21,312 bases of DNA from an uncultured archaeon (lineage in GTDB: Archaea > Micrarchaeota > Micrarchaeia > Micrarchaeales > CABMGC01). How positions within the stretch are numbered: position 1 is the stretch's first letter; each line of letters opens with the position of its first letter. The stretch lies in NCBI GenBank assembly GCA_963787445.1, contig CAWBCT010000018.1:1-21312 (forward strand), in the 5' to 3' direction. Below, piece by piece: positions 5,057 to 20,830 of the stretch. Position numbers and translations under genes: made by a program. The notes beneath the pieces are model-generated. The model had not been told where the DNA came from and made no database searches. It saw nothing but the letters and a program-made list of their open reading frames with translations.

Positions 5057-5062
5057 TAAAAA

Positions 5063-8000
5063 CTAGACCTTCTCCACAGCGATATTCGCGGTCTCTTCCT
5101 CGATCTCGAACGGCTTCGCATGGGGGGAAGAGGCTTCAACGATGGAGGTCGCGTTCACGTCCTTCCTGATCTTCTTAATATTCTCTTTAATCAGTTTCAC
5201 CAATAGCGGCGAGCCGGTGTACTGCACCCTTACCTTATCGGGCTTGCGCAGCTCCATCTCCTTCCTGATCATCTGGACGTGCCTCTCGAACTCCCTGATG
5301 AGCGCCTCGGCCTGGAGCTCCCTGTCGATCTGCGGGTCGATGTAGGCTATGCCGGCACGGAAGGGCACGGCGTTGGGCTTGGAGGCCTTCTCGAGCAGGG
5401 TAAAGTGCTCCTTGGTCACCTCAACGGGCCCCTTGGAAGTATGCAGCATAAACACCCCCTTGGAAGATATGCCAGCCTCGAGTGCCTTGGCATCGGCGGT
5501 CTTGAGCGCCTCGGCCACAGCCGAAGCCTTCTCCTTGAAGGAGGGGCCAAGCTTCGCGAACATCGGGCGAATCTCCACCTCGAAGTCCTCGGTGCGCTTG
5601 ACTTCGAGGTGCTTCAAATTAGTATAGTCTTCCACAAGCCTTGCGAACCGTTGCAGAGACTGCTCAGATTCCGCCTTGTGGACTTCAAGGGTTGCCTTCG
5701 ATAAGGGTTGCCTCAACTTGATGTTCGCCTTCTCCCTGCTGCTCAATATGGCAGTGACCGAGTCCATCGCAAGGTCAAATCCGACCTCAACTTCGGTATT
5801 AATCAGCTTCTTGTTCACCTTAGGCCAGTCATTCAGGAAGATGCTCTCTGCTGAGCCCTCTTTCTTGTAATATTTCAGATAAAGATACTCTGAAGTGAAC
5901 GGGATGAACGGCGAATAGGCCGTGATCAGTGTATAAAGTAGGTAGTTAATTAGGTCCAGGGTCTTCTTTGCCTCTGACCTGCTCCCATCGATTATCCTCT
6001 TCTTGGCTATCTTGAGGTAGAATCTGCTCAAATCATTAAGGCAGAACTCGCCTAGAGCATTATTCGCTACCTGGACCTCGTACTTCTCAAGAGACTCACT
6101 CGCCGTCTTCAGAGTAGAGTTTAGCCTCGACACAATCCAAACATCCTCCAAATTACTCTTATCATTAATTCTTGGCTTCTTGATCTTGTCTGCCTTGTAG
6201 TCTATCGCAGAGGCGTAATCCTCAAACAACTGGAAAACGTTATACAAAATGTTAATCTTCTTGCTCGCCTCCTTTATCTCATCCTTCTTGAACTGCAAAT
6301 CAAGCCACTGCGTATGGCTGGAAACCCATAATCGATACGCATCCGCGCTGGTAAACGTCAAAAGTTCCTTCAATGAGATGTAATTGCCCCAACTCTTGTG
6401 CATCTCCCTTCCATCTTCAGCAAGTAGCATCCCGTCTATTACCACATTCTTGAAGGGGGTCTTCCCATAGACCATGACGCTGCTCTTCAGTAATACAGAA
6501 AACCACCCCCTTAGTTGATCCTTACCCTCTAAGATGAAGGCAGCAGGGAACAGCCTGTCAAACTCCTCCTTGCTCAGGCTTGCCACGAAGGCGATGCTCG
6601 CATCGAACCACACGTCGGCCACATCGCTGATGCGGCGCATGATGCTGTTACACTTAGGACAATCGAGTAAGATTGCATCTACGTGAGGCCTGTGAAGGTC
6701 ATGAAGTTTTGCCACTGCCTCCTTATTGTGGGCCTTCTCAGATAACTCATGAACAGATCCGATAACCTCGATGTGCTTGCACTTCTCGCACTCCCAGATC
6801 GGAATAGGAGTTCCCCAATATCTTTGACGAGAGAAACACCAGTCAGGCGAGTTCTGGAGCACATCTTCCATCCAAGATTGCGCTTCGGCAGGGTGCCAAG
6901 AAACCTTTCGGTTCTCCTTAATTATCTTCTTTTTGACCTTCTGGACGTTCAGGAACCACTGACGTGTGCCAATCATGATTAATTTGGTATTGCATCTCCA
7001 ACAATGAGGATAACTGTGAACTACATTGCCCACATCAAGAAGGGCTCCCGTAGTCTTTAAGTATGACAATACCTTCTCATTTGCCTCACCAGGAACAGCG
7101 ATGCCTTCCAAGGTTCCTGCATCAGAAGTATAGTGTGCATGTGAGTCTAGAGGCACGAAGATTGGTAGTTTGTTCTTCTTGCCCGCCGCATAGTCCTCTG
7201 CTCCGTGACCAGGCGCTATGTGGACAAGGCCGCTTCCTTCAGTTGATGAGACCAGGCCCTCTTCAAAGATGACCTTGTGAAACTTCCTGAACTCCTTCTG
7301 CTTTGGTATCTGGTCCTCAAGAGGGCTCAGATACTTTATCCCTTCAAGTTCGCTACCGTAGAACTCACTTTCAACGACAGCGCTCTCTCCAAGGACATCA
7401 ACAACCGCATCAAGACGGCTTTGGGCAATTATGAGTGACTTGCTGCCAACTGTTGCCTTCACATAACGTCCTTTGGGGTTTACTGCCACGGCTATGTTGG
7501 CAGGTATGGTCCATGGTGTGGTGGTCCAGATGAGCAGGTAGGTGTTATCATCTATCTTTATCTTTGGCCTTGACGCCTTCGTATCCACCTTGAATGCGAC
7601 AAATATGGCAGGATCCTTCTCATCCGAGTAGGAGACCTCGAGGGTTCCCTGCGCAAGGACTGTCTCGCAGTGCGTGCAGTAGAGCATGGACTTGAGATCC
7701 GAGTAAAGAAGTCCTTTCTCGTACTCTTTCTTCAGTATCGACCATCCTGCCTCTATGAACTCCCTTTTGTATGCAAAGTACGCATTGTCAAAGTCAAGGG
7801 ACATGCCGAAGCGCAGATAGTCCCTTTTCATATTGGGGATGAGGGCGTCGACGAACTCCTTGCAGCGCTTGATGAAGCTCTCGACCCCGATTCCGGTCTC
7901 GATATCCCTCTTGGAGGTTATCTTGAGCTCCCTCTCCACCTTATTTTCAATAGGAAGGCCATGGACGTCGTAGCCGGCGCGGTCGTGGACATCCCAACCG

Positions 8001-8203
8001 TTCATGCGGCGGTACCTGAGGAGTATGTCCTTAACGTCCTTTACCCAGATTTGGCCAGGATGAAGCTCTCCTGAGGCGTAAGGTGGGCCATCTAGGAAGT
8101 AGAAGGGCTTCTTGCCCTTGTTCTTGGCGCGTGTCTTCTCGAGGATGCTGTTCTCGCTCCAGTACTTGAGAACCTCCTCTTCGTTCTTATTAAGGTCGAA
8201 CAC
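5063..8203 (-). CDS. ileS: Isoleucine--tRNA ligase (archaeal/eukaryote-type, IleRS2-like)
   Basis: FLDGPPYASG-ELHPGQ (HIGH region), GYDVHGLPIE, WTTTPWTIPAN, GSGLVHIAPGHG, HSYPHCWRC, DWCFSRQRYWG, EGKDQLRGWF, EMHKSWGN. True start is likely GTG8203 (GGTGT RBS), not the ORF-track ATG8299. Confidence 0.97.
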   Translation of the reverse strand: MFDLNKNEEEVLKYWSENSILEKTRAKNKGKKPFYFLDGPPYASGELHPGQIWVKDVKDILLRYRRMNGWDVHDRAGYDVHGLPIENKVERELKITSKRDIETGIGVESFIKRCKEFVDALIPNMKRDYLRFGMSLDFDNAYFAYKREFIEAGWSILKKEYEKGLLYSDLKSMLYCTHCETVLAQGTLEVSYSDEKDPAIFVAFKVDTKASRPKIKIDDNTYLLIWTTTPWTIPANIAVAVNPKGRYVKATVGSKSLIIAQSRLDAVVDVLGESAVVESEFYGSELEGIKYLSPLEDQIPKQKEFRKFHKVIFEEGLVSSTEGSGLVHIAPGHGAEDYAAGKKNKLPIFVPLDSHAHYTSDAGTLEGIAVPGEANEKVLSYLKTTGALLDVGNVVHSYPHCWRCNTKLIMIGTRQWFLNVQKVKKKIIKENRKVSWHPAEAQSWMEDVLQNSPDWCFSRQRYWGTPIPIWECEKCKHIEVIGSVHELSEKAHNKEAVAKLHDLHRPHVDAILLDCPKCNSIMRRISDVADVWFDASIAFVASLSKEEFDRLFPAAFILEGKDQLRGWFSVLLKSSVMVYGKTPFKNVVIDGMLLAEDGREMHKSWGNYISLKELLTFTSADAYRLWVSSHTQWLDLQFKKDEIKEASKKINILYNVFQLFEDYASAIDYKADKIKKPRINDKSNLEDVWIVSRLNSTLKTASESLEKYEVQVANNALGEFCLNDLSRFYLKIAKKRIIDGSRSEAKKTLDLINYLLYTLITAYSPFIPFTSEYLYLKYYKKEGSAESIFLNDWPKVNKKLINTEVEVGFDLAMDSVTAILSSREKANIKLRQPLSKATLEVHKAESEQSLQRFARLVEDYTNLKHLEVKRTEDFEVEIRPMFAKLGPSFKEKASAVAEALKTADAKALEAGISSKGVFMLHTSKGPVEVTKEHFTLLEKASKPNAVPFRAGIAYIDPQIDRELQAEALIREFERHVQMIRKEMELRKPDKVRVQYTGSPLLVKLIKENIKKIRKDVNATSIVEASSPHAKPFEIEEETANIAVEKV

Positions 8204-8240
8204 GTAGACACCAATGAATAAGAATATAGGCGATGTGAAG

Positions 8241-8255
8241 CTCTTAAAGGTTTTG
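8241..8255 (-). promoter_or_regulatory. Putative BRE/TATA promoter of ileS
   Basis: Minus strand reads AAAACCTTTAAGAG about 40 nt upstream of GTG8203. Confidence 0.45.
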
Positions 8256-8289
8256 TGTGCGTGTTTTACACCCTTAAAATTTACTGTGG

Positions 8290-8354
8290 GGCTTTGCATT
8301 TTTAATCCAATTTTCGACCTATTAAAATTGCAAAGCGATGAATAAAATTGCAGA
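8290..8354. repeat. Left-end inverted repeat/hairpin of the element plus a third subterminal copy
   Basis: GCTTTGCATTTTTAAT (8291-8306) and ATTAAAATTGCAAAGC (8321-8336) form 16-bp arms with 1 mismatch and a 14-nt spacer. Third copy AATAAAATTGCAGA at 8341-8354. Confidence 0.8.
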
Positions 8355-8355
8355 C

Positions 8356-9556
8356 TTATAAAACCACCTTATTAAAGTTGGGTTCTATCCCCAACTCATA
8401 CATCTCCTGAATTAATACGGTTATGTTGTATGCTATTATCTTGCACAATAATTCATTAATTTGTGATGTTTTGTTCCTTGATTTGAGGACATCTCCGAGT
8501 TTCTTCTTCATAGATGCGAATGTACTCTCAACATTGCTTCTCATGTGATAGTGATTCATGAACTCCTCCTTGTTATAGGCAAAATAATGGAACATCTTGC
8601 GCCAGATATGGTTGCCGCCCTGCGGTTTGCTTGTGGAATTCTCCTTAAACGGTATGTATGCAGTGCCCCCTAAATCATCTACAAAGGCGATATTTTTCCT
8701 GCTCAAATACGCCTTATCTCCATAGGCTTCCTTAACACTAAACCCATTGTCGGATGTTTCCTGTATAAGTGGTATGAACTGCGGGGAATCTGCACCATCC
8801 TCATCAGTGATCCTTGCAGACGTTATTATGTTGGTTCTTACACCTATGCAGACGTGAGCCTTTAACCACTTGTGTTTCTTCTTTGTGTTGTGCTTTTCCT
8901 TGCAGTACTCGTTGAATTGCGTAGTCCTAAATCCTGTCGAATCTACAGCGAAATCTATCTCTATTGCCTTTAATGGCGATGCGGTTATCGTAATCAGATT
9001 GTGCAGTATGGGTGTTAAGTCCTCCCTGTTAAGAAGTGTAGACGGAAGATTGAAGTTGGGTATCGTGTCTATGTACCCTTTCTCCTTGGAAACGCCGAAC
9101 AGGGAGTTTACCCTCCTGCTCGACATCTGCGTGTATACCTTCTTTATCGCAACAAAAAGCCCCGTATTGAAGCCTATTCGTGGCCTTCCGTGTATTTTAG
9201 GCGGTTTTGGGTCTTCCACCTCTCTTGACCAAATCGGCAAGCAATTCCTCGAATAGCTTGCCTTCTTTGGTCTGCGCCTGATTATAGGTGCTCCATGCCT
9301 GTTTGTATGTGAGGCGTATCTTTTCTATCTCTGTGCCGGCAGGTTTTAGCTTTTCTATGTCAAGATAGTACCTTACAGCATATGCATGCTTGCAAGTGGC
9401 GTTATGCATTTCCGAATCAGGGCAGTCACAGGTAAAGTCCTCTGAGACCCTATGAAATCCGTATCCTGACTGGGATCTAACAATCCAGCCGTCTTCTGTT
9501 TCCTTTACGGCCTTTTGCCTTGCCAGCGCAAGCCCCCTACGTTGTCTTTTATCCAT
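8356..9556 (-). CDS. IS5-family (IS903-like) DDE transposase with N-terminal SWIM zinc finger; split by a 1-nt frameshift near 9221-9227
   Basis: ORF 9197-9556 has CDCPD...TCKHAYAV (SWIM). ORF 8356-9240 has AVDSTGF, WLKAHV, DSPQF, GDKAY and YHMRSNVESTF. The span is 1201 nt (400 codons + 1). Removing one A from GTCAAGAGAGGTG joins the two frames into ~399 aa. Confidence 0.9.
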
Positions 9557-9565
9557 ACTATCACT

Positions 9566-9635
9566 CTATTAACACTTATTAATAATTATTAACACAGTAA
9601 GGTATAAATACCTTTCTATTAATAACCATTAATGA
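9566..9635. promoter_or_regulatory. Divergent promoter with five 10-bp-phased ATTAA boxes around a palindromic TATA element
   Basis: CTATTAACAC/TTATTAATAA/TTATTAACAC (9566-9595), then AAGGTAT-AA-ATACCTT (9599-9614), then CTATTAATAA/CCATTAATGA (9616-9635). Confidence 0.75.
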
Positions 9636-9650
9636 AATTTAAGGGATTAA

Positions 9651-9791
9651 ATGGCCAAGAAACTTATATTAGATGTCGACGAAGAAACCTGGAAGGAAGT
9701 GCTAAAGTACAAAATAGATCAAGGCCTTAAGAATAACAATGAAGCCGTAGTAAAGTTAGTAAAATCAGGTTTGAAGAATAAGAATAAGTAG
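9651..9791 (+). CDS. Small ribbon-helix-helix-like DNA-binding protein (46 aa)
   Basis: Not in the ORF track. MAKKLILDVDEETWKEVLKYKIDQGLKNNNEAVVKLVKSGLKNKNK shows an alternating beta-strand followed by two helices with a Gly turn. Divergent from the transposase. Confidence 0.75.
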   Translation: MAKKLILDVDEETWKEVLKYKIDQGLKNNNEAVVKLVKSGLKNKNK

Positions 9792-9811
9792 AGAAGTATT
9801 GAATAACTAAG

Positions 9812-11200
9812 ATGGGCGACATGGCAACAGATAACAGGATTTCACAAAAAATCGAGGATAATCCATTCCAAGTTAATGAGTTAAGTCAGCACAATACGAC
9901 GTTATCAAAGATACAGGATTTAAAACCGGATAAAAAGTGGTCTTTTAATAATATTGAGAGAAGCGACACTAGTTACTTAACTCATAGCTATCATAGATAT
10001 CCTGCAAAGTTTATCCCTCAAATTGTTCATAAATTAATAGATACTTACGCTCCGGATAAGAGTCAAATAATATGTGATCCATTTGGAGGCTGCGGCACAA
10101 CACTTGTAGAAGCTAAGGTATTGGGATACAAAAGCATAGGCTTCGATATTAATCCTATTGCAAAGCTTATTACACAAACAAAGACCACACCGATTAATCC
10201 TAAAACCCTTCAAAAACAGAGGACTAAATTCTTACAAGCGTATGAACTTGCTAGTCCTATATCCCATATTCATCACCAACGAATTGAATACTGGTTTGAT
10301 AGCGACATCGTAAAGGAACTCGATAAGATATATTTTGTAATTAGGAAAATCAAAAACCCGAACGTAAGACGTTTTTTCCTTTGCGCATTTTCCCATAATC
10401 TTAAAAACTGCTCCAGATGGTTAATGAAGAGCATAAAACCTACTATAGACAAAGACAAAGTATTTCCAGAACCAAAAGAGACCTTTTTACATCACCTTGA
10501 CTCCATGATTAAAAAGAACGAAAAGTTTTATGCAAAACTCAAAGAGTCTGATAATTTATATTTACCATCAAAGATGTATCGCAGAGATTCAACTAAAAAG
10601 CTTCCAGTTATACCCGACTCTATAGATTTAATTGTTACTTCACCGCCATATGTTACGTCTTATGAGTATGCTGATTTACACCAGCTTTCTCTTTTATGGT
10701 TTGGGGACGATCCTAAAAACTTTAAAAAATGGCACAAATTTAGTAATGATTTTCTAAATTTCCGTAAAAGTTTCATAGGTACAACCTCTAGAAAAGCAAA
10801 AGAAGGTAGTTATAATAGTCAAATCGCTGAGAAGATTATAGGGGATTTAATAAAAGTGGACAAACCAATCGCATCTGATGTGGCTAACTACTTTTTAGAC
10901 ATGAAAAAGGCATTTACCGAGATGTATCGAATACTAAAAGTTGGTGGAAAAGCATGTATAATTATAGGCAATACAGAGTTAAGAAATATTAAGATCCAAA
11001 ACGCACAAGTTGCCATAGAACAAATGCAGTTTATAGGATTCAAAAAGGTTGAATTTATTAAAAGGAAAATCTCTAATAAGGTGATAACCCCTTGGCGTGA
11101 CTCGAATACCGGCAAGTTTACCGGTAAAGGAAATCCTTCTAGAAAAAGAGTATATGCTTACGAATACATATTGATAATGGAAAAAATCCAAAATCAATAA
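9812..11200 (+). CDS. DNA amino-methyltransferase, probably N4-cytosine, alpha motif order
   Basis: HRYPAKFIPQ, motif I DPFGGCGTT, GFDINP, and a later motif IV TSPPY. Start may be 9812 or 9821. Confidence 0.92.
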   Translation: MGDMATDNRISQKIEDNPFQVNELSQHNTTLSKIQDLKPDKKWSFNNIERSDTSYLTHSYHRYPAKFIPQIVHKLIDTYAPDKSQIICDPFGGCGTTLVEAKVLGYKSIGFDINPIAKLITQTKTTPINPKTLQKQRTKFLQAYELASPISHIHHQRIEYWFDSDIVKELDKIYFVIRKIKNPNVRRFFLCAFSHNLKNCSRWLMKSIKPTIDKDKVFPEPKETFLHHLDSMIKKNEKFYAKLKESDNLYLPSKMYRRDSTKKLPVIPDSIDLIVTSPPYVTSYEYADLHQLSLLWFGDDPKNFKKWHKFSNDFLNFRKSFIGTTSRKAKEGSYNSQIAEKIIGDLIKVDKPIASDVANYFLDMKKAFTEMYRILKVGGKACIIIGNTELRNIKIQNAQVAIEQMQFIGFKKVEFIKRKISNKVITPWRDSNTGKFTGKGNPSRKRVYAYEYILIMEKIQNQ

Positions 11201-11207
11201 ACAACTA

Positions 11208-11269
11208 ATGTTATCTTTATGATATAAATATGCAAAGGAATAAATATCCTTATGTTATATATATGGTAT
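11208..11269 (+). promoter_or_regulatory. Promoter with an 11-bp-phased ATGnTAT repeat array
   Basis: ATGTTAT 11208, ATGATAT 11219, degenerate ATGCAAA 11230, ATGTTAT 11252, ATGGTAT 11263. The skipped position holds AAGGA-ATAAATA-TCCTT (11235-11251). Confidence 0.7.
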
Positions 11270-11279
11270 TAGTGAATGA

Positions 11280-11513
11280 ATGGTAAAAGTCAAAGTCGAA
11301 GAAGAAACAAGTGAAAACCGATTTAAACGTATCGCTACTTCCAGAACCGTAAGGATACTAAATGACGTAAGACTTCTTGGAAATTGTTCAAATAAAGGAA
11401 ATTATAGCTATACTAGGGAAGAAGTTGACAAAATATTCTCCACCATAGAGAAAGAAGTTAAACGGGTCAAAATGATGTTTGACGCTCCAAAGACTGAATT
11501 CTCGCTAAAATAA
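11280..11513 (+). CDS. Small conserved-looking helical protein (77 aa), putative regulator
   Basis: RFKRIATSRTVRILNDVRLLGNCSNKGNYSYTREEVDKIFSTIE resembles a small uncharacterised family I recall near restriction-modification genes (unverified). Basic N-terminal helix. Confidence 0.8.
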   Translation: MVKVKVEEETSENRFKRIATSRTVRILNDVRLLGNCSNKGNYSYTREEVDKIFSTIEKEVKRVKMMFDAPKTEFSLK

Positions 11514-11522
11514 TGTGATTTA

Positions 11523-12158
11523 ATAACTCATTACCAACTAACAAAAAGTGATAAGGTTTTAATTTCGCTTTACGAAGTTAGCAAAGCGAATAAACCAGGA
11601 AGAAAAATTAGTTTAGAAGACGTCGCGGTTCACGCCTGGAAAAAATATCCTACGGATTTCTGTATGAGGGGTTATCCTGAATACCCAAACATGAGAGACC
11701 TAGAGCGTATGTTATCAAAATTAAGGAGTGAAAATCAGATTAAAGGTAACGTCTATAATTATGTAGTCTTACCTGCAGGCTTGAAAAATTTAAATCAGTT
11801 GCTTACTGGTGTTACTCAAATTAGTAGTTCTGTAGAAAACTCCGTTGCGGTAAGGAGAGATATACAACATGAGATAAATAGAATACTCAACACAAAGGTC
11901 TTTGAATTTTACCAGAAGACCCAAAGCATTGAACCAGTAGAATCAGATTTCTTTGAATTCTTAGGCATAAGCCCAAGATTGCTTTCTCCTGGTGCTCAAA
12001 TCACGACACTTCCAAAATATAGTCTTTGGGTTGATGAAGTTTTACCGTTCTGTGAAACAAACTAAAAACGTGACCAAAATTTGGAAATAATTGTTAAATT
12101 ATGGAAGATTCTTTTAAACCAATTTAAACAGCTAATTCCTGGTGAGAAAAATGGCTAA
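11523..12158 (+). pseudogene. Winged-helix-like protein gene (~211 codons) with non-ATG start and premature TAA at 12063-12065
   Basis: The frame of ORF 11664-12065 is open from 11514 (THYQLTKSDKVLISLYEVS...EDVAVHAWKKYPTDFCMRGYPEYPN). ATA11523 follows GTGAT. After the internal TAA the frame continues KRDQNLEIIVKLWKILLNQFKQLIPGEKNG to a TAA overlapping the next gene's start. Confidence 0.7.
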
Positions 12159-14100
12159 GATTCCTATAGTTGAAAAATTAGCGATGCACGTGCATCGACA
12201 ATACATATTAAAAGAAGCAGAGCATTTTAGAGATCATAAGAAGGGAATACCCGAATGGATTAAAAATTCTGATGATTCGTACGTTAGACATGAGGACTCC
12301 GAGAAAGCAAACTATTCAGGACTCCCGATAATATTGAATTTCAGTAAAAATGAAGTATTATGCTTAGATTTCGGAGGATCAAATGGGGACGATGTTATAA
12401 CTCACGTTCCATACTATGGCAGTCCCGATGCAGCAAAACAAGGAAAAACATTAAAACGAGAAGTAAGCGGTGGACATGGTAATGGTGGAAAGTACTATGG
12501 ACTATCGCAATTTAACGAGTGTCAAGTAATTAACTACTTTGATGGAAAATTAACAATGCTTACACTTAAAAAGGACGGAGATGAAGTAAATTATAAAAAT
12601 TATTCAGTCGACCCTATGTGGCTAATACGATTTCTTTATTTGGATAATTGGCTTTATTTCGACCAACAAGAAAAGATTCTTGAAGCAATCAAGTCTGGAA
12701 AGTTAAACCTGTTTTGTTGGAGAGGCATTAATCCAAAAGAGAAAATAAATAATCCAAGAGATTTGAATAGGCTCCTGGAGGCTGTAACTAAAAATCCGCA
12801 AGCAAGATCAGCATTGAGTACTAGAATAATTGATGTTCTACTAAACGGTAGCCTTTACTACCACCAATTAACTCCAATAAAGATGAACCCTGATCCATCT
12901 AAAAGTCCACGAGAATTTATATTACCAAATCAGCTAGGAAAATTTGCTTTCAATAAAACCCAGACTTCTACACTTAAAGTCAGTTTTTCTATCGAACCTC
13001 TCACAGGAGAAAGTAGTTCACTAAATATTCTAGAAATATTTTCTAATGGTAAACCTATAGCATTCTATAATATTTCCTCAATTTTGTTCGATAAGGGAGT
13101 TTCTAGAATAATGTATGCCGAGATAGATTGCCCCGAACTTAAGGAATATAACTGTGTAAGCAATGACCGAGTGGAGCTGGTTAATAATCCCGTTAGCGAG
13201 TTGTTTCTAAATTGGTGTACAGGTAAGCTGCAAGAAGTACTAACTGAACAAACTGACAAAGAAATGAAACGTGAACAGGACGAAAACTTAGATAAAGTAT
13301 CAGAATTTATCGATCAAATTGTTAAAGACTTGCAAACTTTGCTAGAAGAAGAGGTTCTAACCCAAGTTTATAGTAAAAACAGCACCACTCATTCTGTTGT
13401 TCCTACTCCCACAGATGAACCTGGCGGATTTGGAACAAATCATAAAATACGAAAGAAGGGAGGTGGCAAAAGAACTGGGAAACTAGTAGAAAAGGATAGC
13501 CCGGCAATACAGAAACCGAATAAATCGCACATTCGAGTTTTTATATCAAATCGCGATCCTGATCCACTAAGCCCAACAGGTGCAAAATACGATATGATAG
13601 AGAGGCAACCCGTGCTTAACCAAAGGCAACAAGATGTCCCATATGGATATTGGTGGATAAATAGTCAAAAGGAATATCTCAAAAAAATGAAAATCGAACA
13701 ACCCGCGGCAAAGGCTGTTTATTGTTTCTTAATAAAAGAGGTGTTCCTTTCTAGTACATACAGGAAAAAGTACCAAGACGAACCTGTAGATCACGTTACT
13801 CCAGATGCACTAGACGATTTAGACTTTAATTTGATAGATCGAGTCTTTAATAAAGTTGTTAGCAGACTTAGCATCAATATAACAGAGGTAAATATATCTG
13901 AAAAATTACGCCAGGCGATTAGAAATAAAGATAGATTTACAGTACCTGAACTCTCAGACGAGTTAAATATCGATCAGACTACTATAAACAGTTTTATTGC
14001 ACAAAATCAAGATGACATATCTAAAATGTTCAAAATTGTAAAAGGTAAAAATCCATATACTAATATAGGTCCACAAATAAACATCTATACTAAAAAATAA
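12151..14100 (+). CDS. GHKL (MORC/MutL/Hsp90-like) ATPase with possible C-terminal HTH
   Basis: N-box PEWIKNSDDS, degenerate G1 LDFGGS, G2 SGGHGNGGK. SNDRVEL then a coiled coil and a Gly/Lys-rich linker, WWINSQ, and terminal FTVPELSDELNIDQTTINSFI. ATG12151 has a GGTGA RBS. Confidence 0.8.
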   Translation: MAKIPIVEKLAMHVHRQYILKEAEHFRDHKKGIPEWIKNSDDSYVRHEDSEKANYSGLPIILNFSKNEVLCLDFGGSNGDDVITHVPYYGSPDAAKQGKTLKREVSGGHGNGGKYYGLSQFNECQVINYFDGKLTMLTLKKDGDEVNYKNYSVDPMWLIRFLYLDNWLYFDQQEKILEAIKSGKLNLFCWRGINPKEKINNPRDLNRLLEAVTKNPQARSALSTRIIDVLLNGSLYYHQLTPIKMNPDPSKSPREFILPNQLGKFAFNKTQTSTLKVSFSIEPLTGESSSLNILEIFSNGKPIAFYNISSILFDKGVSRIMYAEIDCPELKEYNCVSNDRVELVNNPVSELFLNWCTGKLQEVLTEQTDKEMKREQDENLDKVSEFIDQIVKDLQTLLEEEVLTQVYSKNSTTHSVVPTPTDEPGGFGTNHKIRKKGGGKRTGKLVEKDSPAIQKPNKSHIRVFISNRDPDPLSPTGAKYDMIERQPVLNQRQQDVPYGYWWINSQKEYLKKMKIEQPAAKAVYCFLIKEVFLSSTYRKKYQDEPVDHVTPDALDDLDFNLIDRVFNKVVSRLSINITEVNISEKLRQAIRNKDRFTVPELSDELNIDQTTINSFIAQNQDDISKMFKIVKGKNPYTNIGPQINIYTKK

Positions 14101-14127
14101 TAGTATTTTACTCGGATAGCTGATCTT

Positions 14128-14907
14128 ATGGGAGAATTGGAAGATCTTAAAGAAAAAATCCTTAAAGGATACGAAGGCCAATTTGTCTTCTTTCAGATTG
14201 AAGGCCCTTTAGAAGACATTGGGCATAGTGTGGCTCCTTGGGCTGGGGAAGATTACAAGGAATTTCTTGTTATAGCTAAGAAATTAGGTGCTAAACAAAT
14301 CTATTACTCTGAAGCTTTTGAAGATGAAGGCGAACATGGTGAGGATATAGCGGAGCTAGATTTAGGATTTCTTTTTGATGATACCTTACATTTATTCCAT
14401 GCTTATGCAGATTGGTATGAACCAGATGAGGGTTTGGTTGAGAATCAAGAAAATTCCAAAGAAAGCCTTGAAAAACATATAGAAAATACGCCAGTAGAAG
14501 AATTAGCTAACGAGATTTTAGATTATGCTAAAAAAGAGAACATTTCTATAGAACATGTCAGTAATAATTTGTATAGAACGACGCATGCAACCCCTATAAT
14601 GGACGCTTTTTTGGCTGAAAAGAAGATAGATAGATTTAGATCGCTTCTCACAAGTAAAACAAGGGTTAAATTGGATAGGGTAACAGAATTTATAGAAAGT
14701 AGAGCATTACAGAAAATACACTCAGAAGAAAAAGAAACTATACCCCCATTAACTAAAGAGTGTGTTGAATGGGCAAAGCAAAATGGCTTCAATAAATTAA
14801 CACGAGCAAATCTTAACGCATTTTTGTCAGAGAAAGACCAGAAGATAAGCTCTCACAGTCAAGATATTTTATACACAAGAGTAAATTCTGAACTTAAGAA
14901 GAAATAG
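14128..14907 (+). CDS. Hypothetical protein (259 aa), acidic N-terminal half, helical C-terminal half
   Basis: Long ORF 27 nt after the GHKL gene, same strand, same AT-rich composition. Confidence 0.8.
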   Translation: MGELEDLKEKILKGYEGQFVFFQIEGPLEDIGHSVAPWAGEDYKEFLVIAKKLGAKQIYYSEAFEDEGEHGEDIAELDLGFLFDDTLHLFHAYADWYEPDEGLVENQENSKESLEKHIENTPVEELANEILDYAKKENISIEHVSNNLYRTTHATPIMDAFLAEKKIDRFRSLLTSKTRVKLDRVTEFIESRALQKIHSEEKETIPPLTKECVEWAKQNGFNKLTRANLNAFLSEKDQKISSHSQDILYTRVNSELKKK

Positions 14908-14958
14908 GATAAGGTATTTAGATAAGTTCGATTCTAAGAGATTCTGGGGAGAAAGACC

Positions 14959-15105
14959 GTGGGGGTTCTTGTCAATCTGGCCATATGTGGCTTCTACTTG
15001 CTAGTCTTTGGAGCGGCAGCCTCCGGTATATACGAGACTTACCACCAACGAGGCAATAAGAAGATTATTAAGGACTTAGGGAAAAACGAATGTACGGGAG
15101 AGTAA
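14959..15105 (+). CDS. Putative 48-aa single-TM microprotein
   Basis: Not in the ORF track. GTG start after GGGGAG. (M)GVLVNLAICGFYLLVFGAAASGIYETYHQRGNKKIIKDLGKNECTGE has a hydrophobic segment followed by a charged tail. Confidence 0.4.
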   Translation: MGVLVNLAICGFYLLVFGAAASGIYETYHQRGNKKIIKDLGKNECTGE

Positions 15106-15150
15106 AGGAGAGGAATAGATTCGTACCGTATTGGGCGACAACTAGAAAAT

Positions 15151-15579
15151 TTAAAGACCAGCGATAATTAGAACAATGACTATTGTAATTACTAATGAAA
15201 TTACGTATGCAAGACAGAATGTGAAGACGGTTATTTGTGATTTGAGTCTAAGAATCTTATCGGCAATTAGTCCAACAACAAGTCCTAGAAGACCTATTGC
15301 AAAGCCTCTAAACCTAGAACTTTTCTCATCTAAAGCGTAAGACAGGAGAAGTAAGCCAACAGCAATATATGAAAGGAGAAAAACAGCATATCCGATTAAG
15401 CTATTTGCTCCAGAATGAGTAAATATTACAGCTGCTACATAACCAATTATCAAACCAATAAAAAAGAATGGTATTGATATTCGTGTTGGATTATCTGCCT
15501 TTGTTGCATCTGCAACAACGGTTTTGGTAGTTATGTCTTTTTTTACTTTGTTTGCTTTTTTGGTGGTTCCCATCTGCAT
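15151..15579 (-). CDS. Hypothetical 4-TM membrane protein
   Basis: Lys-rich N-terminus followed by four hydrophobic segments. Starts 4 nt after the upstream gene's stop. Confidence 0.8.
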   Translation of the reverse strand: MQMGTTKKANKVKKDITTKTVVADATKADNPTRISIPFFFIGLIIGYVAAVIFTHSGANSLIGYAVFLLSYIAVGLLLLSYALDEKSSRFRGFAIGLLGLVVGLIADKILRLKSQITVFTFCLAYVISLVITIVIVLIIAGL

Positions 15580-15583
15580 CAGT

Positions 15584-16222
15584 TTATGAGTGATTTATTG
15601 TAAGCGGTGCCAGATTCGGATATTCATCTCCAACATAAGTTAATGAGAATGTTATAAAAATCGGATAATTATTGTTATTTTGGAACTTGAAAGTATTTAT
15701 TCCTCGCAGTACTGGAACGTAATGATAGAATGTCGAATTATAAGCAGGTGTATCGGCAAAACCGGATATGCCTCTTTCTACGTCGCCAGAAGTCAAATAG
15801 TGTGTGGGACAACCGCCATAACAATATACGGATTGTGAGGCATTAGAATTGGATTCAAATCCATAAGTAAATATGGGCGCTGTAGTTGATTGTATATATA
15901 ACACCAAATAGCCGTCATATGGCGCATTAAACGTTATGTTGTAATCTCCGCTTATAGTATAGTTATTGTAAGTATCATATGAATAGTTGTAGAATACAAG
16001 ATTGCTCTGATAACCGGGAACAGTTATTGTATAATTTTGGTATAGATTATCAATGTAAGGGGTTGCTATGGTCGTTGTGCTAAGTATAGTCGTACTTGGA
16101 TTGAGGTTGGCGCCATTGGAAGAACCAATTTGTGTGGATTTTGTTATGTATAAGTACCCCAATATCAATGCCAATGCTACATAAGAAATGATATTTGATT
16201 TGCCGTTTGGTTTTTTCGCCAT
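15584..16222 (-). CDS. Hypothetical membrane-anchored or secreted Tyr/Asn/Thr-rich protein
   Basis: MAKKPNGKSN-IISYVALALILGYLYI signal/anchor, Thr-rich linker, several N-x-S/T sequons (NYT, NYS, NIT, NAS, NST). TTTAAATA box about 25 nt upstream of ATG16222. Confidence 0.8.
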   Translation of the reverse strand: MAKKPNGKSNIISYVALALILGYLYITKSTQIGSSNGANLNPSTTILSTTTIATPYIDNLYQNYTITVPGYQSNLVFYNYSYDTYNNYTISGDYNITFNAPYDGYLVLYIQSTTAPIFTYGFESNSNASQSVYCYGGCPTHYLTSGDVERGISGFADTPAYNSTFYHYVPVLRGINTFKFQNNNNYPIFITFSLTYVGDEYPNLAPLTINHS

Positions 16223-16292
16223 TTGAGTTACCCTTTTCATAGCGTATTTAAATTTCCCATTACCTACTTAATTTCTTATGATTCTTATATGT

Positions 16293-16342
16293 TCGCTTTG
16301 TCTAGAAATAGAAATTTGTAGAATACGAGATTTGAACAAGCC
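16293..16342. repeat. Candidate right end of the element (imperfect hairpin GCTTTGT...ACAAGC)
   Basis: TCGCTTTG at 16293-16300 is the reverse complement of CAAAGCGA (8331-8338). CAAGCC at 16337-16342 mirrors the left-end GGCTTTG. Span is 47 nt versus 46 nt on the left. Confidence 0.5.
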
Positions 16343-16375
16343 TTAACCCGTCTGGCTTACGCTCTTCACGCTATC

Positions 16376-16705
16376 TTACCTCCTTCTAAGACTCATAAAC
16401 GATCTTCGTCTGCTTTCAACAGCCTTACCTTTAACACCACCCTCTTCGTCTTCCTCTTCTTCCCCTTGCGTAGTAGCACTTCCTTGATTTGAGAACCCCT
16501 TCTGCAGGTCGTTCCTGTTCAGTACCAGCCCATCCCAGATGGCTAAGGCTCCAGGATCCCTCCTTAGGGCTGACTCGGCGAAGACTCTAAGTAGGTCTAA
16601 TTTTTCTATCGGGGCACTTTCCGGAGTGACGAGAGGAGTCCTAGTCGCTGGCGCTCTCGTTTTGGTTCTGACTTCAGCTACCATTTCCTCGATTAAATAA
16701 CTCAT
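16376..16705 (-). CDS. Hypothetical protein (109 aa) with acidic tract and basic tail
   Basis: ATG-initiated ORF filling the gap, with more host-like GC. No recognised motif. Confidence 0.55.
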   Translation of the reverse strand: MSYLIEEMVAEVRTKTRAPATRTPLVTPESAPIEKLDLLRVFAESALRRDPGALAIWDGLVLNRNDLQKGFSNQGSATTQGEEEEDEEGGVKGKAVESRRRSFMSLRRR

Positions 16706-16829
16706 TCCAAATATTTATACATTCTGTACAGTTGGATCTTTATCAAAGGAAAAGGTGTGATACACACAATATCAATATTGGTCGCAACTGATTAATAACC
16801 TTTTTGTTTAGGTATTCGCATCGGGTGTT

Positions 16830-17294
16830 TTGGTGAAGAAGTGTCTGGTTTCTACGACTATTGTGTTTGACAAGGATCATAAGAATGTAATATTGCTCAA
16901 TCATAAGAAACTTGAGGTATGGATGCCACCTGGAGGCCATATTGAACTAGGAGAACTGCCATCTGAAGCGGCGTTGAGGGAGGCAATGGAAGAGACCGGT
17001 CTAAAAGTGAAGCTACTATACACAAAGAAACAGGTCGTAAAGGGAGACGGGAACGCTATAGAGGTCCAGAGTCCATTCGTAGTACTTAACGAGAACGTAG
17101 AGTACAAGGACGAGCCCCATCTGCATTTCGATATGGTCTACATAGCTGAAGCAGAGAGCAAGAACGCTGCTATGAGCCATGAATCTACAGACATGGGATG
17201 GTTTGACAGGAAATCAATACAACAGTTGAAGATGTTCCCTAATGTCCGTTCAGTGCTAGAGGCTGCCTTCAAGGAGTTCGGCAGCAAAGAATAA
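16830..17294 (+). CDS. NUDIX hydrolase
   Basis: Nudix box GGHIELGELPSEAALREAMEETG, with LLNHKKLEVWMPPGG and HLHFDMVY. TTG or GTG start after GGGTGT. Confidence 0.93.
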   Translation: MVKKCLVSTTIVFDKDHKNVILLNHKKLEVWMPPGGHIELGELPSEAALREAMEETGLKVKLLYTKKQVVKGDGNAIEVQSPFVVLNENVEYKDEPHLHFDMVYIAEAESKNAAMSHESTDMGWFDRKSIQQLKMFPNVRSVLEAAFKEFGSKE

Positions 17295-17332
17295 AGTATA
17301 TGGTTTTATTGCTATAGTTTCTATCTGGTATT

Positions 17333-18946: not shown

Positions 18947-19583
18947 GACTTGGATTGGACATATAGTAAGATTTTGCATAAAGTCGTTCTTTTGGCAATT
19001 TTCTTGCGTCTCTAAGCGTATCTCGCACCTTCCTGCGGAAAGCAGGCTTGTACTTTTCAAGATAGGAGTTAAGCCTCCTTGAGTCAAGACCTGGAAGTAT
19101 GTTCTGCCATAGCTCATCCCTTATGGCGCCTCCGAAGTAGAGCATGTCTATTATTGTCTTTTCCAAATCAGACACAGGAACCCAGAATCCATCTCGCTTT
19201 ACAAGTCCATACCCAAAGAATAGTTCTGGCTTCATCCGGTATACCAGATAATTAGCACCTAAAAACGTCCGTAGACCCATTCGGACATTCTTTGGCGTGA
19301 TTACTATCGGATTTGTCCCTTGCATGGAGAGACCCCTTATTCTAAGAGCGTCCTCCAACCCGTAATATGAGGGAGAGAAAGCGAAGCATAGGACGACCAT
19401 GTCTTGATGGAACGTGTATATGCCCCTGGTTATCTTTGCTATAAGCCCCCGTTTGAGGAGGTTATGGATGAGGAGCCTGCGGTAACCCGCGCTAAGACCC
19501 TTTATGATCTTGAGTTCGTTGACGTTGAATACGGGTTTGGTAGTGCTAGAAAACTCCTCTTTGATATTCTGAAGGTATCTCAC
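18912..19583 (-). CDS. AbiEi-like type IV antitoxin / transcriptional regulator
   Basis: From GTG19583: N-terminal wHTH (VFNVNEL...LIHNLLKRGLIAKITRGIYT), PSYYGLEDAL, FFGY, VSDLEKTIIDM. The 3' end overlaps the ALDH gene by 35 nt, so the stop is uncertain. Confidence 0.85.
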   Translation of the reverse strand: MRYLQNIKEEFSSTTKPVFNVNELKIIKGLSAGYRRLLIHNLLKRGLIAKITRGIYTFHQDMVVLCFAFSPSYYGLEDALRIRGLSMQGTNPIVITPKNVRMGLRTFLGANYLVYRMKPELFFGYGLVKRDGFWVPVSDLEKTIIDMLYFGGAIRDELWQNILPGLDSRRLNSYLEKYKPAFRRKVRDTLRDARKLPKERLYAKSYYMSNPSPTSPPPDSARA

Positions 19584-20236
19584 TCTATCCCCCATTATCG
19601 TGTCTTTCATATCCTTAAGGGACGGAACAGGTCCGTTATAGACAATACTCTGAAGCTCCTTTTCGTTTACAGGTTCTTTGAGATGTTCTATGAACTTCTT
19701 CAGAGGCCTCCTAATGAGTTCCTTCTTACCCGAATAGGCAATCAACTGATATATATCGTAAATGTCTCTTGCATATTTTCTACTCTCGTATGCATCAATC
19801 TTCTCAAGTATGTACTGCTCAGCAGTAAGTGTGCGTAATTTCAGTGTTGTCCCATTATTCGTCCTCAAATTCCCTGAAGCTTCCATTTTCCTTGTCTTCT
19901 GGACACTTGATGTCTACGCTCAGTTTTGACTTTGAATTGGAGATATAAATTCTCAGAGATCTGTTTGTCGCAGATATTTTATCGGTGTAGATTCCGAGCC
20001 TTTGGAGGTTCGCTGCGATTGAGTTCTTAATTATCTTGATGCTCCTTTCCGATGCAACGTAAAGATCTATGTCAAATGAGAATCTGTTTCCTGGACAGCA
20101 TTGCCAGATTCCCGTTCTCCTCCATGGAGCACAAAACTGTTGTCTATAGCGAATATTGTGTTGATAAACAAGTCCTGAAGCTCAGCCAGATCTATGAACT
20201 CTTGGTTCTTCAAGTTAAGGCTATCGGAATTTTCAT
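19580..20236 (-). pseudogene. AbiEii-like nucleotidyltransferase toxin, broken by at least 3 frameshifts (real or sequencing error)
   Basis: Stitched frames give MKIPIA..NLKNQEFIDLAELQD...FVLHGG/TGIWQCCPGNRFSFDIDL...EKIDAYESRKYARDIYDIY, i.e. the GGT, RxSxDxD, EK and RDxYD motifs. Confidence 0.85.
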
Positions 20237-20244
20237 ATTACCAC

Positions 20245-20322: not shown

Positions 20323-20396
20323 TAGGTAAATATCAAAGGCTTTGAAGCGGGATGAGAAGACTTATATCGTTTTGACTTGCTTTAATACTGAATGAT

Positions 20397-20816: not shown

Positions 20817-20830
20817 GTCGGGTGTTATTC

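What the first reader, a model, noticed from the sequence alone, without database searches (positions are those of the whole stretch)
8290..16342. Candidate new cargo transposon: one SWIM-IS903-like transposase mobilising ~6.7 kb of defence and membrane genes
Seen: only one transposase gene. I found no terminal repeat directly upstream of it; instead a divergent RHH gene leads straight into the cargo. A matching end (reverse complement GGCTTGTTCAAATC...CTATT-N6-CAAAGCGA, versus left GGCTTTGCATT...CTATT-N7-CAAAGCGA) appears about 8 kb away, roughly where GC returns to host level. Known: the IS903 inverted repeat starts GGCTTTGTTG, and IS903-type transposases share DSTG / W-x-K-x-H / D-x-A-Y / Y-x-x-R-S-x-x-E; such IS are normally about 1 kb with no cargo. 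Inference: a non-composite archaeal IS5-derived transposon acting as a vehicle for defence systems.
Basis: partly seen in the sequence, partly recalled or inferred. Interest (0 to 1): 0.8.

Follow-up and report, generated by a model that had tools for sequence, protein, structure and literature searches.

The report
One-ended IS903-like defence-cargo transposon
The left end, the transposase and its small regulator belong to a real, widespread family of jumping genes that carry DNA-restriction genes, but this copy is broken, and the proposed right end 8 kb away is a chance look-alike in ordinary host DNA.

Summary
Partly right. Position 8290 is a true transposon terminus. It has GGCTTTGCATTTTTAAT plus three 12-nt subterminal repeats, then a SWIM+DDE transposase gene split by a 1-nt frameshift, and a divergent 46-aa regulator gene.

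Relatives show this family does carry cargo. I found 31 complete elements of 2.5-7.3 kb with 9-bp target duplications and (A/G)GCTTTG inverted repeats. Their cargo is mainly restriction-modification genes, and none ends within 1.1 kb of the transposase start.

The proposed right end at 16342 fails:
- It aligns no better than chance (90% of simulations do as well).
- It has no target duplication.
- It lies in flank DNA that two strain-variant contigs share without the element.

The cognate second end is not in the window. An 18/19-nt inverted copy with the expected three direct repeats forms the last bases of another contig (C14). A 68-bp miniature element in a same-genus genome joins that terminus to 51 nt identical to window 8290-8340, with a perfect 9-bp duplication.

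So the window holds a one-ended, probably inactive copy inside a hypervariable slot (8259-16198) upstream of IleRS. How much of the neighbouring methylase and GHKL-ATPase genes it carried cannot be fixed. Membrane-gene cargo is unsupported. This scan met the same family before in four other genomes.

The parts
8259..8289 (.). 30-nt spacer between the conserved IleRS upstream region (which ends at 8258) and the transposon terminus. Its last 9 nt (8281-8289, TTACTGTGG) would be one copy of the target duplication.
   Evidence: Four contigs of the assembly and one contig of run X2 diverge at 8258/8259. The 30-mer is unique in the genome. No second exact TTACTGTGG occurs in the window.
8290..8354 (+). 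Transposase-proximal terminus (IRR). It reads GGCTTTGCATTTTTAAT, with one direct (8295-8306) and two inverted (8321-8332, 8341-8352) copies of the 12-nt repeat TGCAATTTTAAT.
   Evidence: Verified relatives have the same architecture at their transposase-proximal ends. Bases 8290-8340 are identical to the right part of a 68-bp miniature element with a 9-bp duplication in same-genus genome G004.
8356..9240 (-). C-terminal, catalytic part of the transposase (DDE_Tnp_1; DSTG, DKAY, Y-2-R-3-E-6-K motifs).
   Evidence: Pfam PF01609, E 6e-24. It is 75% identical to the 399-aa P0002.
9197..9556 (-). N-terminal part of the transposase with the SWIM zinc finger. The frame is lost near 9223 through one extra base in AAGAGAG.
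   Evidence: Pfam PF04434, 22.1 bits against a cut-off of 19.6. The alignment to single-ORF homologues places the break at DLVK|EVEDP, read against the DNA.
9557..9650 (.). Divergent promoter region with two palindrome-like sites, TTAATAATTATTAA and TTAATAACCATTAA, around a TATAAATA box. These are likely operators for the small regulator.
   Evidence: Inverted repeat I14. The same layout with TAATAGTTATTA sites occurs upstream of the transposase in L006, and other palindromes in L008, L013 and L014. Function is inferred.
9651..9791 (+). 46-aa regulator gene, divergent from the transposase. The sequence pattern looks ribbon-helix-helix, but this is unproven.
   Evidence: Homologues of 57-80% identity sit in the same divergent position in L025/L006, L026, L067, L038 and L052. 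No Pfam hit even at E 1.
9812..11200 (+). Type II N6/N4 DNA methyltransferase, 20 nt after the regulator gene. It is probably cargo.
   Evidence: Pfam N6_N4_Mtase, 8e-21. PADLOC MTase_II, 3e-55. A 44%-identical homologue in G060 is followed directly by a large ATPase whose ELVCNAYDA motif I read as GHKL-type by eye; no search was run on it.
11280..14100 (+). Three-gene module: 77 aa, 133 aa and 652 aa (GHKL/HATPase_c_3-like). It is a candidate defence module. Whether it belongs to the transposon is unresolved.
   Evidence: The same gene trio stands alone, with no transposase or methylase hit in the loci, in metagenome contigs: all three genes in 11 of 14 loci and two of three in 2 more. ORF maps of 4 of them were inspected. 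The Atlas feature search gave HATPase_c_3 clusters at 0.96-0.97, which is a lead only.
14128..14907 (+). 259-aa gene of unknown function, the last gene of the low-GC same-strand block.
   Evidence: No family hit passing thresholds. No homologue in any fetched locus.
15151..16240 (-). Two genes for a membrane protein (142 aa) and a secreted or membrane protein (218 aa). They lie inside the variable slot, but nothing shows them to be transposon cargo.
   Evidence: The promoter and first ~14 codons of the 218-aa gene are conserved in C19 and C10, where the rest is replaced or the contig begins.
16293..16342 (.). It is conserved host intergenic DNA, not a transposon terminus.
   Evidence: Nearly identical in C19 (one base missing) and identical in C10, both of which lack the element. 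The alignment score is at chance level.

Best explanation
The window contains one end of an IS903-like (IS5-family) unit transposon of a cargo-carrying type.

Shown:
- 8290 is the exact terminus on the transposase side.
- It is followed by a SWIM+DDE transposase gene, now split by a 1-nt frameshift, and by a divergent small regulator gene typical of the closest relatives.
- Intact relatives are 2.5-7.3 kb, bounded by 15-19-nt inverted repeats that start (A/G)GCTTTG, and flanked by 9-bp target duplications.
- Each end of a relative carries three copies of a ~12-nt subterminal repeat.
- Relatives mostly hold restriction-modification genes between the distal end and the transposase.

Inferred mechanism:
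- The transposase binds the terminal and subterminal repeats, probably using its SWIM zinc finger.
- It cuts at the GGC termini and inserts with a 9-bp stagger, preferentially a few bases from an A/T-rich, TATA-like box.
- The small regulator binds palindromes in the shared promoter region and controls both the transposase and the cargo operon.

In this copy the second end is missing from the window:
- The only cognate distal end in the assembly sits at the very end of contig C14, beside other cargo (a retron-like reverse transcriptase).
- The window copy is therefore a one-ended, probably immobile remnant, or a half of a rearranged element.
- It lies in a slot upstream of IleRS (8259-16198) that holds different defence genes in each strain variant.
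- The methylase next to the regulator, and perhaps the GHKL-ATPase module, most likely arrived as its cargo. The membrane genes and the 16342 'end' are not part of it.
For: Terminus:
- GGCTTTGCA ends sit 44-75 nt after the transposase stop in Methanothrix, Methanoregulaceae and other copies, and sequence similarity between copies stops exactly there.
- The window has the same arrangement of one direct and two inverted 12-mers.
- A 68-bp miniature element in same-genus genome G004 reads: 17-nt terminus, then 51 nt identical to window 8290-8340. It is flanked by TGGGAAAGT on both sides.

Family:
- 575 tblastn-confirmed stretches in the genome collection.
- Of 93 loci with the transposase, 31 hold a complete element. 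I found 35 repeat pairs and dropped 4 that lacked the (A/G)GC(T/C)TTG start. Lengths are 2480-7338 bp, and 30 of 31 duplications are perfect.
- Among 84 cargo ORFs of 100 aa or more: N6_Mtase 9, Eco57I 6, Methylase_S 5, MmeI_Mtase 4, N6_N4_Mtase 3, HNH 3, plus MamI, Tsp45I, EcoRI methylase, GmrSD and HSDR_N.
- Cargo GC is lower than transposase GC in 28 of 31 elements, as in the window (0.345 against 0.436).

Missing second end:
- The 12-mer repeat (2 or fewer mismatches) clusters only at 8295-8352.
- In the whole assembly, only C18:8290 and the end of C14 show the end architecture.

Right 'end' refuted.

Frameshift.

Target preference: an A/T hexamer lies within 3-16 nt of the duplication at 25 of 31 sites, against 9 of 31 in control windows.
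Against: - I could not find where the element ends on the cargo side, so 'remnant' rests on absence. A diverged distal repeat could escape my searches; in L026 the two ends agree in only 12 of 20 positions.
- The assembly is a strain mixture (5.4% contamination, several alternative contigs), so contig C18 could be chimeric.
- Public runs gave only short, low-depth contigs. They bridge 15127/15151 but not the whole cargo.
- The frameshift could be an assembly error, and no read covers it.
- The three-gene ATPase module occurs elsewhere without any transposase, so it may have entered the slot by itself.
- The distal end on C14 sits beside a different type of small regulator, so it may belong to another element of the same repeat type.
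- The TATA-like box next to the window's terminus is 0-1 nt from the presumed duplication. At most verified sites it is about 4-8 nt away, by eye.
Confidence: 0.8

Rival explanations
1. One reading: an intact 8.05-kb transposon running 8290-16342, in which one transposase mobilises the methylase, the ATPase module and the two membrane genes.
For: - The size is only slightly above the largest verified relative (7338 bp).
- GC returns to host level near 16376.
- Both sites begin GGCTT and share CAAAGCGA.
Against: - The alignment is at chance level: score 6, tied with another site, and reached in 90% of 300 simulations.
- There is no 9-bp duplication.
- 16199-16342 is shared with C19, and 16211-16342 with C10. 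Both lack the element.
- The cognate end of this element type is an exact inverted copy of the 17-nt terminus, as the G004 miniature element and the C14 end show.
Confidence: 0.02
2. The element is complete in the real genome and the assembly splits it. On this reading the tail of contig C14 (small regulator, reverse transcriptase, two ORFs, distal end) is the true distal part, and contig C18 switches strain or locus somewhere to the right of the regulator gene.
For: - The assembly holds exactly one proximal and one distal end of this repeat type, on two contigs, and both are oriented consistently.
- C14 stops exactly at the terminus.
- The bin is a strain mixture.
Against: - No sequence is shared between the last 8.3 kb of C14 and the window that could mediate a mis-join. 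The best blastn match is 51 nt at 73%, E 1.8.
- C14's tail has its own regulator of another type next to a tyrosine integrase, and it continues into host genes.
- An independent run has a 100%-identical contig across 15087-15237.
Confidence: 0.1
3. Only the transposase and its regulator are transposon-derived. They landed in a pre-existing defence island, and the methylase, ATPase module and 259-aa gene were never their cargo.
For: - The slot 8259-16198 holds other restriction-modification genes in variants C19 and C16 without this transposase.
- The ATPase trio stands alone elsewhere.
- A methylase plus a large ATPase I read as GHKL-type by eye occurs in G060 near an ORF I took by eye for an integrase, with no transposase hit.
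Against: - None of the 31 verified relatives lacks cargo on the regulator side; the minimum is 1149 nt.
- No terminus follows the regulator gene.
- By position, in L026, L038 and L052 the regulator gene is followed on the same strand by cargo genes reading toward the distal end, as here.
- The methylase starts 20 nt after the regulator's stop.
Confidence: 0.08

Closest known systems
IS903 / IS903B (IS5 family, IS903 group) of enterobacteria
   Same: - It has a DDE_Tnp_1 transposase with the Y-2-R-3-E-6-K signature.
- IS903B is the best annotated match in the plasmid collection: 24% identity over residues 72-378, E about 1e-8.
- The best NCBIfam model is transpos_IS5_2, covering the whole profile.
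- The inverted repeats begin with the same GGCTTTG (IS903B end read).
- That IS903 makes a 9-bp duplication is recalled. For this family it was measured.
   Different: - IS903 is about 1.06 kb with one gene (recalled; the IS903B transposase CDS spans 969 nt). These elements are 2.5-7.3 kb with 2-8 passenger ORFs.
- The transposase here has an extra ~90-aa N-terminal SWIM zinc-finger region.
- The NCBIfam score of 124 is below the curated cut-off of 140.
- There are three subterminal repeats per end.
- There is often a divergent regulator gene.
- Insertion sites lie next to A/T-rich, TATA-like boxes.
Tn7-like transposons as carriers of defence systems (PMC8649781; I saw only the search listing and the start of the abstract)
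   Same: Both are unit transposons whose variable cargo is rich in defence genes.
   Different: Tn7-like elements use a multi-protein machinery and dedicated attachment sites (recalled). Here a single IS5-type DDE transposase appears to do the job, in elements ten times smaller, and mostly in archaea.
IS-linked and transposon-like movement of restriction-modification systems (PMC3031569, listing and abstract start only; Furuta, Abe and Kobayashi 2010, recalled)
   Same: Restriction-modification genes move with insertion-sequence machinery.
   Different: Those cases, as I recall them, involve composite or flanking IS copies or long target duplications. Here one transposase lies inside a single pair of short inverted repeats.
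Miniature inverted-repeat elements (MITEs) derived from an autonomous IS
   Same: The 68-bp element in G004 is the two termini of this element type joined together, with a 9-bp duplication.
   Different: It is far shorter than typical MITEs (recalled as 100-600 bp). Only one copy was seen, and the 65%-complete G004 genome showed no transposase.

Membership tests
IS5 family, IS903 group | DDE transposase of the DDE_Tnp_1 type with DDE residues and the Y-2-R-3-E-6-K signature | tested here: met
   PF01609, E 6e-24. DSTG, DKAY and YHMRSNVESTFASMK are read in the translation.
IS5 family, IS903 group | Passes a curated IS5-family transposase model | tested here: inconclusive
   For the closest full-length homologue P0002, transpos_IS5_2 is the best model and aligns over 3-288 of 289 positions. 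It scores 124.3 bits against a cut-off of 140.
IS5 family, IS903 group | Terminal inverted repeats beginning GGC (IS903: GGCTTTGTTG...) | tested here: met
   Window terminus GGCTTTGCATT. 31 relatives have (A/G)GC(T/C)TTG at both ends. The IS903B end was read as GGCTTTGTTGAATAAATCAG.
IS5 family, IS903 group | 9-bp target-site duplication | tested here: met
   Perfect in 30 of 31 verified relatives and one mismatch in 1. Perfect for the same-genus miniature element. Not testable for the window copy, which has one end only.
IS5 family, IS903 group | Simple insertion sequence of about 1 kb with no passenger genes | tested here: not met
   Verified elements are 2480-7338 bp, and the distal end lies 1149-5428 nt from the transposase start.
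SWIM+DDE IS903-like cargo transposons (the group defined here and in earlier notes of this scan) | Single ~400-aa transposase with an N-terminal SWIM finger and a C-terminal DDE domain | tested here: inconclusive
   Both domains are present and 75% identical to P0002, but they are split by a 1-nt frameshift near 9223. Whether this is a real mutation or an assembly error is not known.
SWIM+DDE IS903-like cargo transposons (the group defined here and in earlier notes of this scan) | Transposase-side terminus with one direct and two inverted subterminal repeats | tested here: met
SWIM+DDE IS903-like cargo transposons (the group defined here and in earlier notes of this scan) | Cognate distal terminus with three direct subterminal repeats, on the same molecule | tested here: not met
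   None in the 21.3-kb window. The only one in the assembly is at the end of contig C14.
SWIM+DDE IS903-like cargo transposons (the group defined here and in earlier notes of this scan) | Restriction-modification or other defence cargo between the ends | tested here: inconclusive
   A Type II methylase and a candidate ATPase module lie next to the regulator gene. Without the distal end, their inclusion cannot be shown.

The most novel reading that the evidence does not exclude
The SWIM+DDE IS903-like elements are a large and, as far as my searches reach, undescribed family of single-transposase unit transposons. They act as a main vehicle for restriction-modification and other defence genes in archaea (DPANN, methanogens, Thermoplasmata) and in some bacteria. 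They home in on DNA a few bases from TATA-like promoter boxes. On this reading, the IleRS-upstream slot in this window is a population-level hot spot fed by such elements. Separated half-elements (the window copy and the C14 tail) and a 68-bp miniature derivative would show ongoing decay, shuffling and possibly mobilisation in trans.
Probability: 0.45. Interest if true: 0.75.

Novelty: new variant of a known kind. Interest (0 to 1): 0.5.

Why it matters
- A 2019 survey of archaeal integrated elements stated that transposons carrying passenger genes had not been detected in archaea (PMC6563490, Discussion passage read).
- This family would fill that gap. It would also give a simple one-protein mechanism for how restriction-modification and other defence genes spread among small-genome archaea.
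- Its apparent preference for promoter-proximal A/T boxes would make it a natural promoter-targeting transposon.
- For this particular window the value is smaller. It is a decayed copy, but together with the C14 end and the G004 miniature element it fixes the exact termini and the duplication length for this subtype.
- It also marks a hypervariable defence slot with sharp borders upstream of an essential gene.

Tried and rejected
1. GCAAAGCC at 15299-15306, inside the 142-aa membrane ORF, as the distal end. Only 9-10 nt match, there are no subterminal repeats, the flank TCTAAACCT is not the duplication, and the ORF reads through it. GGCTTTGCA occurs 18 times in the assembly.
2. A distal end directly after the regulator gene (9792-9811): none found.
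3. Weak similarity between window 15078-15127 and C14 38252-38302 (51 nt, 73%, E 1.8), considered as a trace of a deleted distal end. It is not significant.
4. Terminal repeats sought within 300 nt of the transposase in relatives: only chance matches. This is what led me to look further out.
5. An empty site in other species of the genus. The right flank matched only the Nudix gene in G004 and G010, and no IleRS hit lay within 10 kb of it in G004, so no comparison was possible.
6. Public runs. Two soil-metagenome runs of one study hold small shares (0.09 and 0.06). When laid, they give short low-depth contigs. Parts without cover say nothing, and no joints were seen.
7. Homologues of the window's cargo inside verified elements: none apart from the regulator.
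8. Pfam for the 46-aa 'RHH' protein, the 77-, 133- and 259-aa proteins and the two membrane proteins: no hit above threshold (PADLOC and NCBIfam). The RHH label therefore rests on sequence pattern and position only.
9. Rfam on the window: nothing. tRNA scan of the window: none.
10. Literature. Five full-text searches and term look-ups in two papers found no description of this family. Subscription journals, ISfinder/TnCentral records and paper supplements were not searchable, so 'undescribed' is provisional.


Full report
**Setting.**
- The window is contig C18 of a 1.05-Mb, 19-contig metagenome-assembled genome, 82% complete with 5.4% contamination.
- Its relatives are 0.4-1.4-Mb genomes. Public records that hold the closest transposase homologues are labelled Candidatus Micrarchaeota.
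- Gene order:
  - IleRS at 5063-~8203(-).
  - A transposase in two overlapping frames, 8356-9240(-) and 9197-9556(-).
  - A 46-aa gene at 9651-9791(+).
  - A DNA methylase at 9812-11200(+).
  - ORFs of 77, 133, 652 and 259 aa up to 14907(+).
  - Two membrane or secreted protein genes at 15151-16240(-).
  - A 109-aa ORF and a Nudix gene after that.
- GC is 0.50 in IleRS, 0.44 in the transposase, 0.35 in 9812-14907, 0.35 in 15151-16375, and 0.51 from 16376 on.

**Checking the observation.**
- The quoted letters are there.
- There is one transposase, and it has SWIM (22.1 bits, cut-off 19.6) and DDE_Tnp_1 (E 6e-24) domains.
- Nothing resembling the left end lies between the transposase start and 9900.
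- The proposed pairing of the two ends does not hold:
  - They share 14 of 52 positions ungapped, and the only local alignment is an 8-mer.
  - Of 12 GGCTT sites on that strand in 9557-21312, the 16342 site ties for first with score 6.
  - In 300 first-order Markov simulations of the region, 90% reach 6 or more.
  - The 9 nt outside the two sites differ: TTACTGTGG against TTAACCCGT.
- The left-end 'CAAAGCGA' belongs to an internal hairpin of that end, GCTTTGCATTTTTAAT / ATTAAAATTGCAAAGC.
- The transposase is interrupted. Homologues are single ORFs of about 400 aa (more than 4,100 hits). The alignment places the break at DLVK|EVEDP, which is one extra base in AAGAGAG near 9223.

**The family does carry cargo.**
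- A profile of 28 homologues found 575 confirmed stretches in one-genome-per-species contigs. The records are labelled Micrarchaeota, Methanothrix, Methanoregulaceae, Thermoplasmata, Altiarchaeota, Dehalococcoidia, Acidobacteriota and others.
- Copies within and between genomes stay similar for 250-520 nt upstream of the transposase. In the Methanothrix and Methanoregulaceae copies, similarity stops at ...TGCAAAGCC 44-75 nt after its stop.
- A forward GGCTTTGC then turned up 1.1-5.4 kb upstream of the transposase in many loci, paired with the downstream end and flanked by identical 9-mers.
- A systematic scan used three criteria: an exact 9-nt terminal match, 12 or more of 20 repeat identity, and a duplication with at most one mismatch.
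  - It gave 35 pairs in 31 of 93 loci.
  - I dropped four pairs that lack the (A/G)GC(T/C)TTG start (L075 4853, L088 1713, L095 1557 and 1573).
  - That leaves 31 elements of 2480-7338 bp, median 4401.
- Each end carries three copies of a ~12-nt repeat: three direct at the distal end, and one direct plus two inverted at the transposase end.
- Of 84 passenger ORFs of 100 aa or more, many match restriction-modification families: N6_Mtase 9, Eco57I 6, Methylase_S 5, MmeI_Mtase 4, N6_N4_Mtase 3, HNH 3. EcoRI methylase, MamI, Tsp45I, GmrSD_N and HSDR_N_2 have 2 each.
- The closest relatives carry:
  - a MamI-type pair (L026);
  - a methylase plus a 177-aa gene (L025, same genus);
  - a fused HSDR_N-methylase (L038).
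- The 46-aa regulator is conserved (57-80% identity) in the same divergent position in L025/L006, L026, L067, L038 and L052. Other subgroups have zinc-ribbon or other small proteins there.
- Cargo GC is below transposase GC in 28 of 31 elements, so the GC step at 9557 is normal for the family.

**The true ends of this subtype.**
- The window's 8290 end has the family's proximal architecture.
- In the whole assembly, only one other place has it: the last 60 nt of contig C14.
  - These read cATTAAAATTGCAgaatatggATTAAAATTGCAaaaccgATTAAAAATGCAAAGCC and then the contig stops.
  - That is an 18/19-nt inverted copy of the window terminus, with three direct repeats. This is exactly the distal-end pattern, with the element interior pointing into C14.
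- Inside C14 lie the following:
  - a small regulator homologous to those next to the transposase in eight other loci;
  - an HsdR_N-like fragment;
  - a frameshifted reverse transcriptase with an RT-16 RNA motif (Rfam, 64.5 bits);
  - two ORFs;
  - further in, a tyrosine integrase and a tRNA gene;
  - no transposase.
- A 17-nt pattern search of 248 genomes of the order found, in same-genus genome G004, a 68-bp element. It consists of the 17-nt terminus followed by 51 nt identical to window 8290-8340, and it is flanked by TGGGAAAGT on both sides.
- This fixes the terminus to the base, the cognate repeat and the 9-bp duplication for this subtype. It also shows what a real second end should look like, and nothing like it is in the window.

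**The right side of the window.**
- The assembly contains strain variants of this locus.
  - C19 matches the window up to 8258 (95%) and again from 16199 (98.5%), with 980 bp of other DNA (a broken Vsr gene and small ORFs) between.
  - C10 begins at window 16211.
  - C16 holds two further IleRS copies. Each is followed from the same base by other contents that I identified by eye from the translations: Vsr, C5 methylases, nuclease-like ORFs and a large ATPase-like ORF. A different DDE transposase also lies there (weak hit, E 1.7e-5).
  - A contig of public run X2 diverges at 8258 as well.
- So 8259-16198 is a hypervariable slot with sharp borders.
This is a direct refutation.
- The 218-aa gene keeps its promoter and first ~14 codons in those variants. 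It is better read as resident than as cargo.

**Cargo of the window.**
- The 462-aa protein is a Type II methylase.
- The 77/133/652-aa trio is a conserved module:
  - All three genes occur in 11 of 14 metagenome loci, and two of the three in 2 more.
  - No transposase or methylase hit appeared in any of these loci.
  - In the two long contigs it sits among what look by eye like housekeeping genes.
- The 652-aa protein resembles HATPase_c_3 (GHKL) clusters by Atlas features at 0.96-0.97, which is a lead only.
- A 44%-identical methylase in G060 is followed directly by an 833-aa ATPase with an ELVCNAYDA motif that I read as GHKL-type.
- The block is thus plausibly a methylase-linked defence system. 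Its membership in the transposon cannot be shown without the distal end.

**Target choice.**
- In reconstructed empty sites, an A/T hexamer lies 3-16 nt from the duplication on at least one side at 25 of 31 sites, against 9 of 31 for windows 31-44 nt away. Among archaeal records the figures are 22 of 26 against 7 of 26.
- Many of these read TTTAAA or TATATA.
- Earlier notes of this scan on four other genomes describe the same family and a promoter-edge preference. My counts agree with them and were made independently.

**Comparison with what is known.**
- The nearest annotated relative is IS903B: 24% identity and the same GGCTTTG start of the repeat. That IS903 also makes a 9-bp duplication is recalled.
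- The best curated model is IS5_2, below its cut-off.
- The differences are the SWIM extension, the passenger genes, the regulator and the subterminal repeats.
- I found no description of such elements in five full-text searches.
- PMC6563490 (passages read) says passenger-carrying transposons had not been detected in archaea.
- In PMC13343696 (term look-up only), 'passenger' and 'SWIM' do not occur.
- ISfinder, subscription journals and supplements could not be searched.

**Verdict.**
- The thing itself is a one-ended, frameshifted copy of a real cargo transposon family, sitting in a hypervariable defence slot.
- Shown: the terminus, the family structure, the duplications, the cargo spectrum and the falsity of the 16342 end.
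- Inferred: the roles of the SWIM finger, the repeats and the regulator; the history of the missing end; and whether the methylase and ATPase genes travelled with it.

Noticed in passing
window 8258/8259 and 16199-16211; G000 contigs C19, C16 (two copies) and C10: The DNA between the IleRS upstream region and the start of the 218-aa gene is a hypervariable slot with base-sharp borders. Four assembly variants plus one contig of run X2 diverge at 8258/8259. By eye from the translations, the contents are mostly restriction-modification genes (Vsr, C5 methylases, nuclease-like ORFs, a large ATPase-like ORF). The mechanism of the exchange is unknown.
   Followed up: partly
L105 (G000:C14:26375-38374), 4860-12000: The low-GC tail of contig C14 holds a tRNA gene, a tyrosine integrase, a family-type small regulator, an HsdR_N-like fragment, a frameshifted reverse transcriptase preceded by an Rfam RT-16 RNA motif (64.5 bits), two ORFs, and then the transposon's distal end exactly at the contig end. 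It looks like a retron-like defence cargo on a half-transposon beside an integrase element.
   Followed up: partly
L143 (G004:C8) 1501-1568: A 68-bp miniature element made of the two termini of this transposon subtype, with a perfect 9-bp duplication (TGGGAAAGT). It lies 7 nt from an ATATATAT box, in a genome where no transposase was found (65% complete).
   Followed up: yes
L006 2384-2480; L003 (C16); L012; L015; L019; L064; L074: A conserved ~80-nt non-coding motif of the form ...AAAATGCG-N-GGCAACGCTATACAAA-N-AGCC...TTTCTGGGTG...TGTTAGCGTATGCT recurs in seven loci. In L006 it lies between the transposase stop and a methylase start. It may be a regulatory RNA or an operator. There was no Rfam hit in L025 or L107 (C16), the only motif-bearing sources that were scanned.
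   Followed up: partly
window 11280-14100; L115-L128: The trio of an 83-aa, a ~210-aa and a 652-aa (GHKL-like) gene is a conserved stand-alone module in DPANN-like metagenome contigs, and I could not assign it to a known defence system. In the window the middle gene is called at only 133 aa, so it may start earlier or be truncated.
   Followed up: partly
window 8299-9172 against 14961-16092, in runs X1 and X2: In the two public soil runs, contig pieces over the transposase differ from the window by 2-5%. Two X1 contigs diverge leftward at 8372 and 8420. Pieces over 12198-12619 and 14961-16092 are 100% identical. This suggests related transposase copies with other 3' neighbours in the same habitat. 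Depth is only 2-4x.
   Followed up: no
L107 (G000:C16) 6431-7423: A different 330-aa DDE transposase sits in the C16 variant between two copies of the 109-aa-ORF homologue. It gives only a weak hit to the window transposase (E 1.7e-5), and its family was not determined.
   Followed up: no
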